Source: Escherichia coli
GTDB lineage: Bacteria; Pseudomonadota; Gammaproteobacteria; Enterobacterales; Enterobacteriaceae
Strand: one strand, 5' to 3'
Length of the DNA: 64,000 bases
Assembly: GCF_003334785.1 (NCBI RefSeq)
Contig: NZ_QOWV01000001.1
Within the stretch, counting starts at the first letter, position 1, and each line of letters begins with the position of its first letter. This document shows, in pieces, positions 51,101-57,100 of this stretch. Made by a program: the position numbers.

Positions 51101-54100
51101 CTTATTGTTGAGGGTAATACTTCGGGTTCAACTACCGTCTATGTGAAAAATGCTGGAGGAAGCGGCGCGGCCACGCTAAACGGGATCGAACTCATAACTG
51201 TGAATGGCGATGAATCTCCAGCAGATGCCTTCAGATAAGGTGATGCAAGGATTGCAGCTGGAGCTTTCGAATATCAACTAAAACAACAAGGCAAAAACTG
51301 GTATTTGACAAGTTATCAGTCAGTGAATGAGGAGGATAACAGCTCAGAGGGAAATTCAGAATCAACAGAAACGCCTACCCCCGTCCTGCGCCCCGAAGCT
51401 GGAAGTTACGTCGCTAACCTGGCAGCTGCTAACACTCTTTTTGTTATGCGTCTGAACGACCGTGCGGGTGAAACGCGCTACATCGATCCTGTAACTGAAC
51501 AGGAGCGTTCAAGCCGACTTTGGCTACGTCAAATTGGCGGGCATAATGCCTGGCGTGACAGCAACGGACAGTTGAGAACGACCTCGCATCGCTACGTCTC
51601 GCAGTTAGGGGGCGATCTGTTAACCGGTGGTTTTACCGATAGTGACAGTTGGCGTTTGGGAGTGATGGCTGGTTATGCCCGCGACTACAACTTAACTCAT
51701 TCCAGCGTGTCGGATTATCGTTCGAAAGGGAGTGTCAGAGGCTATAGCGCAGGGCTGTATGCCACCTGGTTTGCCGATGACATCAGTAAAAAAGGCGCAT
51801 ACATTGACTCCTGGGCGCAATATAGCTGGTTTAAAAACTCGGTGAAAGGGGATGAATTAGCCTATGAATCCTATAGCGCGAAAGGTGCAACCGTCTCGCT
51901 GGAAGCGGGTTACGGTTTTGCCCTGAATAAATCCTTTGGTCTGGAAGCGGCGAAATATACGTGGATCTTCCAGCCACAGGCACAGGCTATCTGGATGGGC
52001 GTCGATCATAATGCGCACACGGAAGCCAATGGCTCACGTATTGAGAATGACGCAAATAACAACATCCAGACCCGACTCGGCTTCCGCACCTTTATTCGTA
52101 CTCAGGAGAAAAACAGCGGTCCGCACGGTGACGACTTTGAACCTTTTGTTGAAATGAACTGGATCCATAACAGTAAAGATTTTGCTGTCTCAATGAACGG
52201 TGTGAAAGTCGAACAAGATGGGGCGAGTAATTTGGGGGAAATTAAACTTGGCGTAAATGGCAACCTGAATCCAGCGGCCAGCGTCTGGGGAATGTGGGCG
52301 TGCAGCTGGGTGATAATGGCTACAATGACACCGCAGTGATGGTGGGCCTGAAATATAAGTTCTGATCCCGCCGTTAGCTAAAAAACCGCGTCGTATTCAT
52401 CGACGCGGTACATATGAAATATTATTTTTTGCCGATAGCACGCATGGTGTCATCAATTGCCGTGATCAACAGCATTTGCGGGTCTTTAGCGCAAACCTGA
52501 TTCAGTTTTTCTACCACTTTGGCGCTCAGTTCCGGAGATTGCTCAATTTTTAAATCACGGCTGGCAACGCTGGCATTACCCATTACCGCAACAATTTCTG
52601 CAACCTGTGCGCTGTCAGTTTTTGCCATTTCGTTGGCTTCTGCGCAAGTAATATAGGTTTCTGACGGCAAACCGTTTTTAATATTGTAGTCCTGCGCCCA
52701 GGTCATTGGTGCGAAAACAAACAGGCCCGCCAGTAAAGCAAATTTTTTCATCATCATTCCTTATTTCATTTTACCCAGAATTGCACCACCCGTACCGCCA
52801 ATCACGGCACCTTTAATCGCCCCTTCGAGGCCATTGCCGGTCAGAACGCCAGTGACAGCACCAACGGCGGCACCCACTTTTGCACCTTTACGCGCATTTT
52901 TACCGTCGCGGCCTTTTTCTGTTACTGCACCAACACCAGCGCCAACAGCTGCACCTTTCAGTACGCCATTAACACCATTGCCAGTAAGTAAACCAACGCC
53001 TGCGCCTAGCAATGCACCTTTCGTGGTGCGGTTCATATCCGCCATCGCTGGCGTGGAGCAGAACAATGCTGAGATAAGCCCGAAGGCAAGTATTTTTTTC
53101 TTCAACTTAGATGTCCGGTATTAAGTAAGTTGCACACACAATAATTTCGTCTTCAATTAAGATCTGCTTAACTAAAGAACGCTCGCTATTATTCAGATAA
53201 TTCAAAATGAGCGTGGCTGTGATGATAGGAATTATGTTTTTTACGTGAATGAGAATAATCTTAAATGAGGAATAACTCATTGATTGACAATATTTTTATT
53301 CAAGAAGTGTCATTGACTGTTAACGCAATGTTGTAAAGGTAAGATAATCTGATTTATCAATATTATTGTGTGATTTTTATGTGAGCAGAAGATATTCATC
53401 AGCAACGATTACATTAGTCATTTTATTTTGCCGACGGCCTCATTGTCGAAAGATAAGCGTACGACAGTATTATCAGAAAAGAGTGATTTTTTATCCAACT
53501 ACACTTCAGCGCACTGCGTGTAAAAAATGCCTCTTTCTTATGCGGGATATCATCATTTCATCATGATGTCTTTGGTGAGCGGTGAACACAATACACCTGC
53601 GCTGTCTCTTCAGGATGAATCCCCTGGTCTGGTGCCTGCGGGCTGATGTTGCAGCAGAGCTTAGGTCACTTAGACGCTACTATCATTTATCCAATGGCAT
53701 GGAATCGAAATCAGTCGATACCCGCAGTATATATCGTGAACTGGGTGCAACGCTGAGTTACAACATGCGCCTGGGGAACGGTATGGAAATGAACCCTGGC
53801 TGAAGGCGGCTGTGCGCAAAGAATTTGTCGATGATAACCGGGTGAAGGTGAATAATGACGGTAATTTCGTCAATGATTTGTCGGGCAGACGTGGAATATA
53901 CCAGGCAGCTATTAAAGCCTCATTCAGCAGTACGTTTAGCGGACATCTCGGGGTGGGGTATAGCCATGGTGCCGGTGTGGAATCCCCGTGGAACGCGGTG
54001 GCTGGTGTGAACTGGTCGTTCTGACCATCAACGATTAAACTGCGCTTCGGCGCAGTTTTCGTTTACAGGATGTTGAAAGGGAAAATTCTGGGGCAAAAAA

Positions 54101-57100
54101 AGCCCGCCAGTTACGGCGGGAAACCTCATCCTATGGGAGAACAATGAATAATGAAATTGCGGGGTTATCATCTCCCAGTATATCCATACTAACAATAAGG
54201 TTATTTACTCAACCAGGCATAAACATTTTGTTTTGTGCGTGGGAACAGCCTTAAGGTGTAAAGGGGGAGGTGGAAATAGCAATGAGGAGTATCAGCAAGA
54301 ATACTCGCCGCTTTACCACAACGTGGATGAGAGGGATGAAAAACTCAAGGCAGAGATAACTCTGCCTTGAAGATAAATGCGCTTTTACAGCGGGCTTATT
54401 TCAGCTCTTCTGCTTCCGGTAAGGTCACGTTCAGCTCAAGAATAGAAATATCGCCATCTTTTTGCTCAAGCTGTACGGTTACCATCTCAGGATCAATTTG
54501 TACGTATTTACAAATGACCTCAAGAATATCTTTACGCAACTGCGGCAGATAATGCGGTTCTGCATCGCTGCGACGGCGTTCAGCAACAATAATCTGCAGC
54601 CGTTCTTTTGCAATGTTGGCTGTGTTTTTCTTCCGCGAGAGAAAGAAATCGAGTAATGCCATAACTTATCCTCCGAACAAGCGTTTGAGGAAGCCTTTCT
54701 TCTCTTCTTCAATGAAGCGGAAAGGACGTTCTTCTCCCAACAGACGTTCTACGGTATCTGCGTAGGCTTTACCCGCATCGGCGTTAATGTCGAGAATGAC
54801 CGGTTCACCCTGGTTAGAGGCGCGCAATACTGATTGATCCTCTGGGATCACGCCGACGAGTTTGATGCGCAGGATCTCCAGCACATCTTCCATGCTCAGC
54901 ATGTCACCTCTGCTTACGCGGCCTGGGTTATAGCGCGTTAACAGCAGGTGCTCTTTAATAGGCTCTTCGCCATTTTCTGCGCGGCGTGATTTCGACGCCA
55001 GAATGCCTAAAATACGGTCAGAGTCGCGTACTGAGGAGACTTCCGGGTTGGTGGTAATAATGGCTTCGTCTGCAAAATAGAGTGCCATTAACGCACCGGT
55101 TTCAATCCCTGCCGGGGAGTCACAAACGATAAATTCAAAATCCATCGCTTTCAGATCATCAAGAACTTTGGCGACCCCTTCACGGGTGAGGGCATCTTTA
55201 TCGCGTGTTTGCGATGCCGGCAGAATATAGAGATTTTCAGTACGCTTATCTTTAATTAACGCCTGATTTAGCGTTGCATCGCCCTGAATGACGTTGACGA
55301 AATCGTAAACGACCCGGCGTTCACAACCCATAATCAGGTCGAGATTACGCAGGCCGATATCAAAATCTATCACGACAGTTTTCTTTCCCTTCTGGGCCAA
55401 ACCAGTGGCGATGGCCGCGCTGGAGGTTGTCTTACCAACACCCCCTTTGCCCGAAGTAACAACAATAATGCGTGCCATAGAAATTCCTTGTTAAAAAGGG
55501 ATCAATTTAACGGTTGAACGGTCAAAGCGTTTTCGACTAACTGCAGTCGCGCCGCTTTGCCATAAAATTCTGCTGGGATTTGATCACTCAGCCAGTATTC
55601 ACCTGCGATGGACACCAGTTCCGCCATCAGGTTCGTACAAAATATTTGCGTTTCCCGGTCACCACTTGCCCCTGCCAGCGCACGACCGCGCATCATGCCA
55701 TAGACATGAATGTTCCCATCGGCAATCAATTCGGCCCCAGCGCTAACGTGGCTTGTAACAATCAGATCACATTGTGGAGCATAAATACGCTGACCGGAAC
55801 GCACCGGGGTATCTATTAAACGCGTTTTTGTGACCGGCGTTGTATTTTGCGCTGGAGCCTGCGGTGTGGGAGCTGGACGTGGCGCTTTTTCCTTTCCTTC
55901 CGTCAGGATAGGCAGCCCCATCTTTTCAATTTCGGCTTTAAGTTGCGCATCTTTGCAGCCACTTACGCCAATAACCCGCAAACCGGTTGCCGAAACCGCC
56001 TTATGCATCGCTGACCAGTTTACCGGGTCTTCCAGTGCACTGACGTTGAGTACAACGGGGGCATGTTTTAAAAATGCGGGGGCCTGAGCGATTTTGTCTT
56101 CCAGCGCCTGATGGATAACCTTAGGTTCTGCCTCATGCAGATGAACCACAGATAAAGTGAAGCTACTGCCTTTAAGCTCGATTGGCGTGTTTGACATCCT
56201 GGCCTTACTCAATTAGCTATTAATCATCGCCAGCGCGCGATGATGTTCCGAAGACTATAAGGCATGTTATAGTCTGGATTATATTGAGGCAAGTCACCCT
56301 CCCATTTATTCAGAGTAAAAGTCTATTCTGTGATAAATGGCGCTGATTCATAGCTTAAAAAATACCCTTGTCAATCAACCCATTGCCGTCGTACTTTTGA
56401 TTGTTCTTATTTACGCTTCCTTTTTCCGCACCCTAATCGTGACAGCATCTCCAGACCTGTTTAAATATCCAGTATTGAGGCAAGTGTATTTTTTCACCAC
56501 GCCAGGCTTTCTTAACTTTCCATTTTTTGCGGCATCATTAAAGAACAGATACCCGTTATCTTAATATCCGCCACAGAATTGCTCTATCATAGAAACCGCA
56601 GAAGACGTCTGATACTTCTGTCAGGTCATCGTAACTCGTCCAGGTCAGCGGTTTTGATTACGGATTGATGATGAAATGAGCATAAGTGTTGTACGGTTGG
56701 ATTATCAGGATGTGCTATGAATATGATGCGTATTTTTTATATCGGATTGTCAGGTGTGGGGATGATGTTCTCATCAATGGCGTCTGGAAATGACGCTGGC
56801 GGACTTCAATCTCCGGCGTGCGGCGTTGTTTGCGACCCGTATATTTGTGTGAACTCAGATGGCATTTCCCCAGAGTTAACAAGGAAATATCTCGGCGAAA
56901 AAGCCGCTGAAAACTTACAATCATTACAAGGCTACGATCCCAGCGAATTTACATTCGCTAACGGTGTATTTTGCGATGTTAAAGAAAAATTATGTCGTGA
57001 TGATCGTTATTTTGGTGTGGATGGTAAGCGGAGTGGAAAAATCAATCAAACCACCACAAAGATGTTATTTATGTGTCGTGAGTGATGTCTTGTTTACATT

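What the first reader, a model, noticed from the sequence alone, without database searches (positions are those of the whole stretch)
54094..54369. Terminator-bracketed ~220-bp segment downstream of minE with SD-preceded short ORFs
minE is followed at once by a good minus-strand terminator (54338-54369), yet a second strong minus-strand terminator with a 7-8 nt U-tract lies about 220 bp further on (54094-54120), next to the plus-strand terminator of the ycgI remnant. In between, the plus strand carries two short ORFs preceded by SD-like sequences: a 36-codon ORF at about 54144-54254 (MNNEIAGLSSPSISILTIRLFTQPGINILFCAWEQP, after gggaga) and a 25-codon ORF at about 54282-54359 (MRSISKNTRRFTTTWMRGMKNSRQR, after gggggagg). 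The arrangement suggests a small independent transcription unit (small protein or sRNA) rather than empty spacer.
Basis: seen in the sequence. Interest (0 to 1): 0.35.

Follow-up and report, generated by a model that had tools for sequence, protein, structure and literature searches.

The report
Candidate Hfq-bound small RNA downstream of minE
The spacer after the E. coli cell-division gene minE probably holds a roughly 65-base regulatory RNA gene on the minus strand, ending at the second terminator and already seen bound to the RNA chaperone Hfq, while the two short plus-strand reading frames look like chance ORFs.

Summary
The window is E. coli K-12. The finding lies in the unannotated 371-bp ycgI–minE spacer (MG1655 1,223,977–1,224,252).

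T1 is the working minE terminator, with published Term-seq 3' ends at 1,224,224/5.

The notable part is a 67-nt block (54095–54161) made of T2 plus about 40 nt upstream.
- It is about as conserved as minE itself, while both flanks are hypervariable.
- It is nearly identical in E. albertii, where the flanks differ by about 50%.
- Published Hfq RIL-seq lists "minE.ycgI.IGR" as an RNA that is always second in chimeras and carries a 7-U tract, which only T2 has. It has 5 partners in stationary phase and an sRNA score of 0.28, and was never tested by northern blot.

ORF1 and ORF2 show no protein-level constraint. ORF1 varies in length and is frameshifted in at least 562 genomes, and ORF2 is absent from E. 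albertii.

Best reading: an uncharacterised, Escherichia-restricted, Hfq-dependent sRNA. Its promoter, 5' end and targets are inferred or unknown.

The parts
54337..54371 (-). T1, the intrinsic terminator of minCDE: stem 54371..54344, U-run 54343..54339.
   Evidence: 12-pair stem. (-25.4 kcal/mol, z = -6.4). Published Term-seq 3' ends at MG1655 1,224,225 and 1,224,224 (-), which are window 54342 and 54341. A GGCAGA..TCTGCC hairpin follows minE in most, not all, of the other enterobacterial loci printed.
54162..54336 (.). Hypervariable spacer between T1 and the conserved block. It holds ORF2 and most of ORF1. The published Rho-termination peak falls at window 54181.
   Evidence: 25% of columns are polymorphic among 9 E. 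coli alleles, and 49% differ from E. albertii. A control 67-mer (54165-54231) is identical to K-12 in only 1,566 of 5,317 records. Rho region at 1,224,064 (-), score 24.9.
54167..54195 (-). Inferred weak sigma-70-type promoter: -35 TTGTTA (54195..54190), 17-nt spacer, -10 GATGAT (54172..54167). It predicts a start at about G54160.
   Evidence: My own scan found this 8/12 match at the same column in all 9 E. coli alleles. The last five bases of the -10 (ATGAT) are invariant, including in E. albertii. The predicted start coincides with the 5' edge of the conservation island. This is inference only: it falls below the threshold of the tool scan, and no transcription-start data were obtained.
54095..54160 (-). 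Candidate Hfq-binding sRNA, about 60-66 nt: 5'-GCAAUUUCAUUAUUCAUUGUUCUCCCAUAGGAUGAGGUUU-[CCCGCC GUAACU GGCGGG]-C-UUUUUUU. MG1655 1,223,978-1,224,043 (-).
   Evidence: Conservation island: 3/67 against 64/268 polymorphic columns (p = 1.3e-4) and 4/67 against 134/268 differences from E. albertii (p = 1e-12). The block is identical in 4,144 of 5,317 E. coli records and never below 95%. RIL-seq node minE.ycgI.IGR. No Rfam family matches.
54095..54120 (-). T2: hairpin 54120..54103 plus a 7-U tract (54101..54095). This is the terminator and presumed Hfq-binding 3' module of the sRNA.
   Evidence: The 7-U run is kept in all alleles and lengthened to 8 in E. albertii, which loses the basal pair. It is the only 7-U run in the spacer, matching 'U-tract length 7' in the RIL-seq table.
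54144..54254 (+). ORF1 (36 codons, MNNEIAG...). Probably not a gene: its Shine-Dalgarno sequence, start codon and first 6 codons are simply the antisense of the conserved sRNA.
54282..54359 (+). ORF2 (25 codons, MRSISKN...). A chance ORF antisense to the T1 region.
54037..54064 (+). Hairpin and T-rich tail after the ycgI autotransporter remnant, convergent with T2.
   Evidence: Read directly. The stem is conserved in E. albertii. No Term-seq 3' end is listed there.

Best explanation
The last ~65 nt before T2 on the minus strand (window 54160 to 54095; MG1655 1,224,043 to 1,223,978) most likely encode a small Hfq-binding regulatory RNA. T2 is its own intrinsic terminator rather than a spare terminator for minE.

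Proposed mechanism:
- The RNA ends in a G+C hairpin followed by seven U's and preceded by UUU. That is the 3' module Hfq binds in classical enterobacterial sRNAs (established knowledge).
- Its 5' ~38 nt are A/U-rich with a CUCCC anti-Shine-Dalgarno core and only weak predicted structure. This part would pair with target mRNAs, probably around their ribosome-binding sites.
- It accumulates mainly in stationary phase.
- It is made either from a weak promoter just upstream (TTGTTA-17-GATGAT, start near G54160) or by cleavage of transcripts that read through T1.

Shown: the terminators, the conservation island, use of T1 in vivo, and Hfq association with sRNA-like behaviour in published RIL-seq.
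Inferred: the promoter, the exact 5' end, the pairing region and any regulatory outcome.

The rest of the 220-bp interval is fast-evolving spacer, and the plus-strand ORFs are by-products.
For: 1. Conservation island. Among 9 diverse E. coli alleles, 3 of 67 columns in 54095-54161 are polymorphic against 64 of 268 in the two flanks (Fisher p = 1.3e-4). K-12 and E. albertii differ at 4 of 67 positions against 134 of 268 (p = 1e-12). That is comparable to the minE coding sequence, at 2.6% and 9.4%.
2. Population scale. The block is identical to K-12 in 4,144 of 5,317 records and never below 95%. The adjacent 67-mer is identical in 1,566, and 2,135 fall to 90-95%.
3. Strand. The island includes the full 7-nt T/A run, which only has a function as a U-tail on the minus strand.
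4. RIL-seq (Bar et al. 2021, Table S1, from Melamed et al. 2016 data). The node 'minE.ycgI.IGR' is named with the upstream gene first, so it is on the minus strand. In stationary phase it has 137 chimeric fragments, 5 partners and a SIC score of 0.8 (always second in chimeras). Its U-tract length is 7 and its sRNA score is 0.276, above the authors' 0.1 cut-off and between AllZ (0.295) and FadZ (0.202), both of which were confirmed by northern blot.
5. A promoter-like TTGTTA-17-GATGAT sits in the same column in all E. coli alleles, and its predicted start falls at the 5' edge of the island.
6. T1 already terminates minE transcripts, and a Rho-dependent termination region lies between T1 and the block. 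T2 is therefore not obviously needed for minE.
7. The segment is single-copy and chromosomal, and is absent from phage records and viral contigs.
Against: - No 3' end at T2 appears in the curated Term-seq lists for LB OD 0.4, LB OD 2.0 or M63. Only 18 DirectRNA-seq reads fall in the 800 nt downstream of 1,224,064 without bicyclomycin.
- No northern blot or transcription-start evidence was found. The supplements I could reach for start-site data either gave no hits or were not held.
- The RIL-seq score is modest, and only 0.028 in exponential phase.
- The proposed promoter is an 8/12 match, common by chance, and has only a 3/6 -35 in E. albertii.
- A recurrent SNP, C54107T (L085, L091), turns a stem G-C pair into a C.A mismatch on the minus-strand RNA.
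- The predicted fold outside the terminator is no better than shuffles, z = -0.6 to -1.3.
- Among the loci examined, the block was found only in E. coli and E. albertii.
Confidence: 0.6

Rival explanations
1. T2 is only a fail-safe or insulating terminator. It would stop residual minCDE read-through from running antisense into the convergent autotransporter gene. Hfq would bind its U-tail incidentally, so there would be a long minE 3' UTR isoform but no regulatory sRNA.
For: T2 lies downstream of minE on the same strand and directly abuts the convergent ycgI hairpin. [quoted passage not shown] Any RNA ending in a strong intrinsic terminator tends to be second in chimeras. No discrete T2 3' end appears in Term-seq.
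Against: A terminator needs only about 30 nt, yet the invariant block extends another ~40 nt upstream and stops abruptly. T1 is strong and used in vivo, and Rho already acts between T1 and T2. E. albertii has an even stronger T1 (6+ U's) and still keeps the block intact. Five distinct partners, always in the sRNA position, is not typical of a passive 3' UTR.
Confidence: 0.17
2. ORF1 (plus strand, 36 aa) is a real, fast-evolving small protein, and the conserved block is its 5' UTR hairpin, Shine-Dalgarno sequence and start. The minus-strand RNA might then act as a cis-antisense repressor, in a layout like a type I toxin-antitoxin pair.
For: There is a good GGAG-4 nt-ATG arrangement, and the start and first 6 codons are invariant. 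The ORF stays open in 8 of 9 E. coli alleles and in E. albertii. There is a mild excess of synonymous changes: 8 synonymous to 13 nonsynonymous in E. coli (p = 0.08) and 16 to 24 with E. albertii (p = 0.01 under a model with equal substitution rates). The C54107T SNP keeps a U-G pair on the plus-strand hairpin.
Against: - The C-terminus and length change with the allele: 36, 39, 44, 46 or 69 aa.
- A 1-nt deletion truncates it to 15 aa in an allele shared by at least 562 complete genomes.
- The ratio of nonsynonymous to synonymous change is about 0.5, against 0 nonsynonymous to 27 synonymous in minE.
- There is no hydrophobic transmembrane stretch such as type I toxins have.
- The region upstream on the plus strand is poorly conserved and follows a terminator hairpin.
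- Exact sequences of four ORF1 alleles are absent from 15 billion predicted proteins, with no NCBIfam or PADLOC match.
- A ribosome-profiling paper's supplements contain neither its coordinates nor its peptide.
- The conserved A-run has no role on the plus strand.
Confidence: 0.08
3. Nothing functional beyond T1. The block would be conserved by chance, by recent recombination between E. coli and E. albertii, or as a DNA-level site such as a protein-binding site. ORF2 is likewise meaningless.
For: The locus is a synteny breakpoint full of pseudogene remnants. No transcript end is mapped at T2. One strain tolerates an IS4 insertion inside the block.
Against: Recombination would not carve out a 67-nt island from flanks that differ by about 50%. 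The population contrast of 4,144 against 1,566 identical records argues for selection. Hfq co-purified chimeras show that the RNA exists.
Confidence: 0.08

Closest known systems
Hfq-dependent sRNA candidates predicted from RIL-seq and later validated (AllZ, FadZ, KilS, BhsB; Bar et al. 2021, PMC8175672)
   Same: It comes from the same data set and the same feature profile: second in chimeras, a long U-tract, a handful of partners, and enrichment in stationary phase. Its score (0.276) falls between AllZ (0.295) and FadZ (0.202).
   Different: It was not among the 11 candidates probed by northern blot. It has no name, no mapped ends and no reported targets. It lies ~180 nt beyond a functional terminator rather than directly in a 3' UTR.
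3'-UTR-associated sRNAs with their own internal promoter (DapZ, MicL) or made by processing (CpxQ, SdhX, NarS)
   Same: It sits downstream of and on the same strand as a protein operon. The conserved part is the 3' end with the terminator, and the seed lies near the 5' end of a short RNA (comparison from general knowledge of these families).
   Different: In those cases the sRNA shares the mRNA's terminator. Here the mRNA has its own terminator (T1), and a Rho-dependent region separates it from the sRNA. It therefore looks more like a free-standing intergenic gene.
Short free-standing enterobacterial Hfq sRNAs such as RydC or RybB (about 65-80 nt)
   Same: Its size, its 5' single-stranded seed, and its G+C terminator hairpin with a run of at least 7 U's.
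   Different: Those are conserved across Enterobacteriaceae and have Rfam models. This one has no Rfam match, and among the loci examined it was found only in E. coli and E. albertii, next to an autotransporter remnant.

Membership tests
Hfq-dependent base-pairing sRNA | Rho-independent terminator with a long (at least 6-7) U tail and a U-rich stretch just before the hairpin | tested here: met
   Hairpin of six consecutive G-C pairs in CCCGCC/GGCGGG (the scan counts 7 pairs) plus C and U7, preceded by GGUUU.
Hfq-dependent base-pairing sRNA | Physical association with Hfq in vivo | tested here: met
   Looked up in published RIL-seq tables: minE.ycgI.IGR has 137 chimeric fragments in stationary phase and 12 in exponential phase. 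I could not see read coordinates.
Hfq-dependent base-pairing sRNA | Takes the sRNA position (second) in chimeras with several different partners | tested here: met
   SIC 0.8 with k = 5 means a second-in-chimera fraction of 1.0.
Hfq-dependent base-pairing sRNA | A discrete small transcript with defined 5' and 3' ends | tested here: inconclusive
   No Term-seq 3' end is listed at T2. No transcription-start data were reachable. The promoter is inferred only.
Hfq-dependent base-pairing sRNA | Seed pairing that changes the translation or stability of target mRNAs | not testable with these tools
   Partner identities are in Melamed et al. 2016 Table S2, which is not held. A local duplex scan of the window gave nothing above background.
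Hfq-dependent base-pairing sRNA | Sequence conservation concentrated on the seed and terminator | tested here: met
Processed 3'-UTR-derived sRNA (CpxQ/SdhX type) | Shares the parental mRNA's terminator and is released from it by RNase E | tested here: inconclusive
   minE has its own functional terminator, T1, 180 nt upstream. Read-through followed by cleavage is possible but unproven.
Any curated Rfam RNA family | Match to a covariance model at or near its gathering score | tested here: not met
   Only noise hits (15-19 bits against gathering scores of 39-97), and none on the block.
Small protein gene (ORF1 or ORF2) | Reading frame kept intact and under purifying selection across strains | tested here: not met
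   ORF1 varies in length, is frameshifted in at least 562 genomes, and has 8 synonymous to 13 nonsynonymous changes. ORF2 has 3 to 12 and is absent from E. albertii. The minE control has 27 to 0.
Small protein gene (ORF1 or ORF2) | Evidence of translation | not tested
   The initiation-profiling supplements (Weaver et al. 2019) are not held as text, and the Meydan and Stringer data sets were not looked up. One ribosome-profiling paper's supplements contain no entry for either ORF.
Type I toxin-antitoxin pair | A conserved small hydrophobic toxin ORF overlapped by an antisense RNA | tested here: not met
   The antisense overlap exists, but ORF1 is not conserved and has no transmembrane-like stretch. 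There is no PADLOC or NCBIfam hit.

The most novel reading that the evidence does not exclude
A young, Escherichia-restricted Hfq sRNA gene arrived together with the autotransporter island at the synteny breakpoint next to minCDE. It has since been fixed under purifying selection. It would act in stationary phase on core-genome mRNAs, possibly including cell-division or envelope genes, as hinted by the unexplained filamentation enrichment extending past minE in UTI89 (PMC6206680). Alternatively it forms a cis-antisense pair with ORF1.
Probability: 0.12. Interest if true: 0.55.

Novelty: new member of a known kind. Interest (0 to 1): 0.4.

Why it matters
E. coli K-12 is the reference organism for sRNA biology, yet this RNA is unnamed and appears only as one line in a supplementary table. 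The comparative evidence here is a 67-nt island of purifying selection in an otherwise hypervariable spacer, ending in a 7-U terminator. It turns that line into a well-defined, testable gene model with coordinates, a strand, a likely start and a likely seed. If confirmed, it adds a lineage-specific stationary-phase regulator and a clean example of a recently acquired sRNA. The result also removes two short ORFs from consideration as small-protein genes.

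Tried and rejected
- Rfam scan of 53000-55500 at E <= 10: noise only.
- Homology of the segment outside Escherichia. In most of the other enterobacterial loci I printed, minE is followed by a GGCAGA..TCTGCC hairpin. What follows that is in several cases an apparently convergent gene that I take from memory to be rnd; I did not check it by any search. No copy of the block was found in the 80 minE loci.
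- Phage, plasmid and viral collections: nothing in phages or viral contigs. The 13 'plasmid' hits are all Escherichia and non-mobilizable, and some records are chromosome-sized.
- Literature. No paper in the library mentions the minE-ycgI spacer as an RNA gene.
  - Melamed et al. 2016 supplements are not held.
  - The ids I tried for Melamed et al. 2020 and Thomason et al. 2015 are not held.
  - Hfq-CLASH supplements hold only an OmrB chimera with minE coding sequence.
  - Cappable-seq and Rend-seq supplements gave nothing.
  - The preprint of the initiation-profiling study has no supplements held.
- The TATACT hexamer (54182..54177) as a -10 element: rejected because it is polymorphic in 4 of the 8 non-K-12 E. 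coli alleles (5 of 9 counting E. albertii) and has no -35.
- ORF1, ORF2 and three other small ORFs: no family in NCBIfam or PADLOC. Exact-sequence look-ups are negative except for the 45-aa TTG ORF, which is called 'hypothetical' in a few O157 drafts.
- Duplex scan of the seed against the 64-kb window: the best non-self hits are within what 6,392 tiles would give by chance.
- Structure of the sRNA body: not better than shuffles. No covariation analysis was possible because the block hardly varies.

Full report
**Identity of the locus.** The 431-bp query around the finding is 100% identical to E. coli K-12 strains. In MG1655 (NC_000913.3) the finding maps to 1,223,977-1,224,252 (window + 1,169,883). 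That is inside the 371-bp spacer between the autotransporter pseudogene remnant ycgI (ends 1,223,907, + strand) and minE (1,224,279-1,224,545, - strand). RefSeq annotates nothing there. Nothing is annotated under the match in the listed rows for about 5,300 other E. coli genomes either.

**Check of the observation.**
- T1 (minus strand) has a 12-pair stem at 54371..54344, a 4-nt loop and a TTTTT tail.
- T2 (minus strand) is CCCGCC-GTAACT-GGCGGG at 54120..54103, followed by C and seven T.
- ORF1 (54144-54254, 36 aa) and ORF2 (ATG 54282 to 54359, inside a GTG ORF that starts at 54270) are listed with the quoted translations.
- The ycgI hairpin (54037-54058 plus a T-rich tail) is visible in the sequence.
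- Terminator-like sites are enriched: 7 against 2.2 +/- 1.7 in shuffles.
- T1 folds far better than shuffles, z = -6.4.

**Published experimental data.** Adams et al. 2021 (PMC7815308) list Term-seq 3' ends at 1,224,225 and 1,224,224 (-), which are window 54342 and 54341 in the U-run of T1. T1 is therefore the working minE terminator. No 3' end is listed at T2 in any of their three conditions. Their bicyclomycin experiment reports a Rho-termination region peaking at 1,224,064 (-), window 54181, between T1 and T2. Read counts upstream/downstream were 230/18 without the drug and 293/571 with it, giving a score of 24.9. These windows are 800 nt wide, so resolution is low.

**Comparative anatomy.** I fetched 80 minE loci from other species.
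- In most of the Salmonella, Citrobacter, Kluyvera and other enterobacterial loci I printed, minE is followed by a GGCAGA...TCTGCC hairpin. Several are then followed by what looks like a convergent gene. I take it to be rnd from memory and did not check it by any search.
- The segment studied here matches only in Escherichia.
- Escherichia sp. MOD1-EC7003 shares the minE-proximal part (T1 and ORF2).
- E. albertii shares the ycgI-proximal part.
- Three Escherichia loci (L003, labelled E. coli; L005, Escherichia sp. E1V33; L007, E. whittamii) carry unrelated DNA after minE.
- Within E. coli the spacer is unusually variable, down to 89.5% identity with indels, while the MinE protein is identical.

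**The key result.** I aligned K-12, eight E. coli alleles spread over the identity range, and E. albertii. The alignment shows a sharp island at 54095-54161.
- 3 of 67 columns are polymorphic in E. coli, against 17 of 83 and 47 of 185 in the two flanks (Fisher p = 1.3e-4).
- 4 of 67 positions differ in E. albertii, against 134 of 268 in the flanks (p = 1e-12).
- minE itself scores 2.6% and 9.4% on the same two measures.
- Across all complete genomes the block is identical to K-12 in 4,144 of 5,317 records and never below 95%. The neighbouring 67-mer is identical in 1,566, and 2,135 fall to 90-95%.

The island consists of the seven-base A/T run, the T2 hairpin and about 40 nt upstream on the minus strand. 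Conservation of the T-run makes sense only for a minus-strand RNA.

**Independent support from RIL-seq.** Table S1 of Bar et al. 2021 (PMC8175672) re-analyses the Hfq RIL-seq data of Melamed et al. 2016. It contains a node 'minE.ycgI.IGR'. By the authors' convention the upstream gene is named first, so this is the minus strand downstream of minE.
- In stationary phase it has 137 chimeric fragments, 5 distinct partners and a SIC score of 0.8. With k = 5 that means it is always the second RNA in the chimera, the sRNA position.
- Its U-tract length is 7, and T2 carries the only 7-U run in the spacer.
- Its sRNA probability is 0.276, above the authors' 0.1 threshold. It falls between AllZ (0.295) and FadZ (0.202), both confirmed by northern blot.
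- In exponential phase it has 12 fragments and a score of 0.028.
- It was not among the 11 candidates tested. I found no paper that names or discusses it.

**How the RNA might be made (inference).** All nine E. coli alleles have TTGTTA-17 nt-GATGAT at 54195..54167 on the minus strand. The ATGAT of the -10 is invariant, including in E. albertii. The predicted start (about G54160) coincides with the 5' edge of the island. That would give a 60-66-nt RNA: GCAAUUUCAUUAUUCAUUGUUCUCCCAUAGGAUGAGGUUU, then the hairpin, then U7. The match is only 8/12, so it is weak evidence. Cleavage of T1 read-through transcripts is the alternative. The body of the RNA has no significant predicted structure, which fits an accessible seed.

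**The short ORFs.**
- ORF1's Shine-Dalgarno sequence, start and first six codons lie inside the island, so they are invariant at the DNA level. Downstream the frame ends at 36, 39, 44, 46 or 69 codons depending on the allele.
- ORF1 is cut to 15 codons by a 1-nt deletion in an allele that is 100% identical in 562 complete genomes.
- Unique substitutions in ORF1 are 8 synonymous to 13 nonsynonymous in E. coli. The count is 16 to 24 with E. albertii, a ratio of nonsynonymous to synonymous change of about 0.5.
- ORF2 has 3 synonymous to 12 nonsynonymous changes and does not exist in E. albertii.
- The minE control has 27 synonymous to 0 nonsynonymous.
- The exact peptides are absent from a 15-billion-protein collection. 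Only the overlapping 45-aa TTG ORF is occasionally called 'hypothetical'. There are no NCBIfam or PADLOC matches.
- One ribosome-profiling paper's supplements contain neither ORF. The dedicated initiation-profiling tables were not available.

I conclude that the ORFs are not supported. A fast-evolving ORF1 cannot be formally excluded.

**Counter-evidence and caveats.**
- No transcript end has been mapped at T2, and no northern blot exists.
- Expression in exponential phase is low.
- A recurrent SNP, C54107T, weakens the minus-strand stem.
- One strain has IS4 inserted in the block.
- I could not see the RIL-seq read coordinates or the partner list.

**Verdict.** The spacer is not empty. The functional unit is most likely a minus-strand, Hfq-associated sRNA occupying only the T2-proximal ~65 nt, and neither plus-strand ORF. 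It is a new, uncharacterised member of a very well-known class, restricted among the loci examined to E. coli and E. albertii.

Noticed in passing
window 54337-54400; loci L006, L010, L022, L028, L042 around 2767-2840: In most of the other enterobacterial loci printed (Salmonella, Citrobacter and others) a GGCAGA...TCTGCC hairpin follows minE. Several are then followed by what looks like a convergent gene, which I take from memory to be rnd and did not check. In E. coli the neighbour is instead the ycgI autotransporter remnant, so the finding sits on a synteny breakpoint.
   Followed up: partly
L003, L005, L007 at about 2768-2840: Three Escherichia loci (L003, labelled E. coli; L005, Escherichia sp. 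E1V33; L007, E. whittamii) have unrelated DNA after minE. It starts with a long inverted repeat (ATCTGACAG ... CTGTCAGAT) in place of the GGCAGA hairpin. About 110 of 5,426 E. coli genomes also lack the K-12 segment.
   Followed up: no
L092 at about 1545-2890 (strain CE0032f), equivalent to window ~54139: An IS4 element is inserted inside the conserved block, right after ...CCTATGGGAG. This strain is a natural knock-out of the candidate sRNA (and of ORF1).
   Followed up: partly
window 54181 (MG1655 1,224,064, minus strand): This is a published Rho-termination region. With bicyclomycin the downstream 800 nt get more reads (571) than the upstream 800 nt (293). That suggests either a drug-unmasked start inside the spacer or antisense transcription across the ycgI/ymgJ region.
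   Followed up: partly
window 54233-54370 (+): A 45-aa TTG ORF overlapping ORF2 in another frame is annotated 'hypothetical protein' in a few O157 draft genomes (EIN80065.1 and others). It is truncated to 9-18 codons in five of the eight other E. coli alleles examined. The UTI89 annotation also carries an ORF here (C1358), mentioned in PMC6206680. In that study, enrichment for filamentous cells extended past minE.
   Followed up: partly
window 53681-54395 compared with 54396-54743: The ycgI remnant and the spacer are far more polymorphic within E. coli (13-25% of columns in 9 alleles) than minE and minD (0-3%). This fits a decaying, horizontally acquired island abutting a core operon.
   Followed up: partly
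L092 1-1420; window ~49700-54024: In strain CE0032f an intact 'ECIAI39_1904 family autotransporter adhesin' gene ends just before ymgD-ymgG-ymgI-ymgJ, and a short ycgI-like remnant still follows ymgJ. The ycgI piece may therefore be a separate remnant rather than the tail of ycgH.
   Followed up: no
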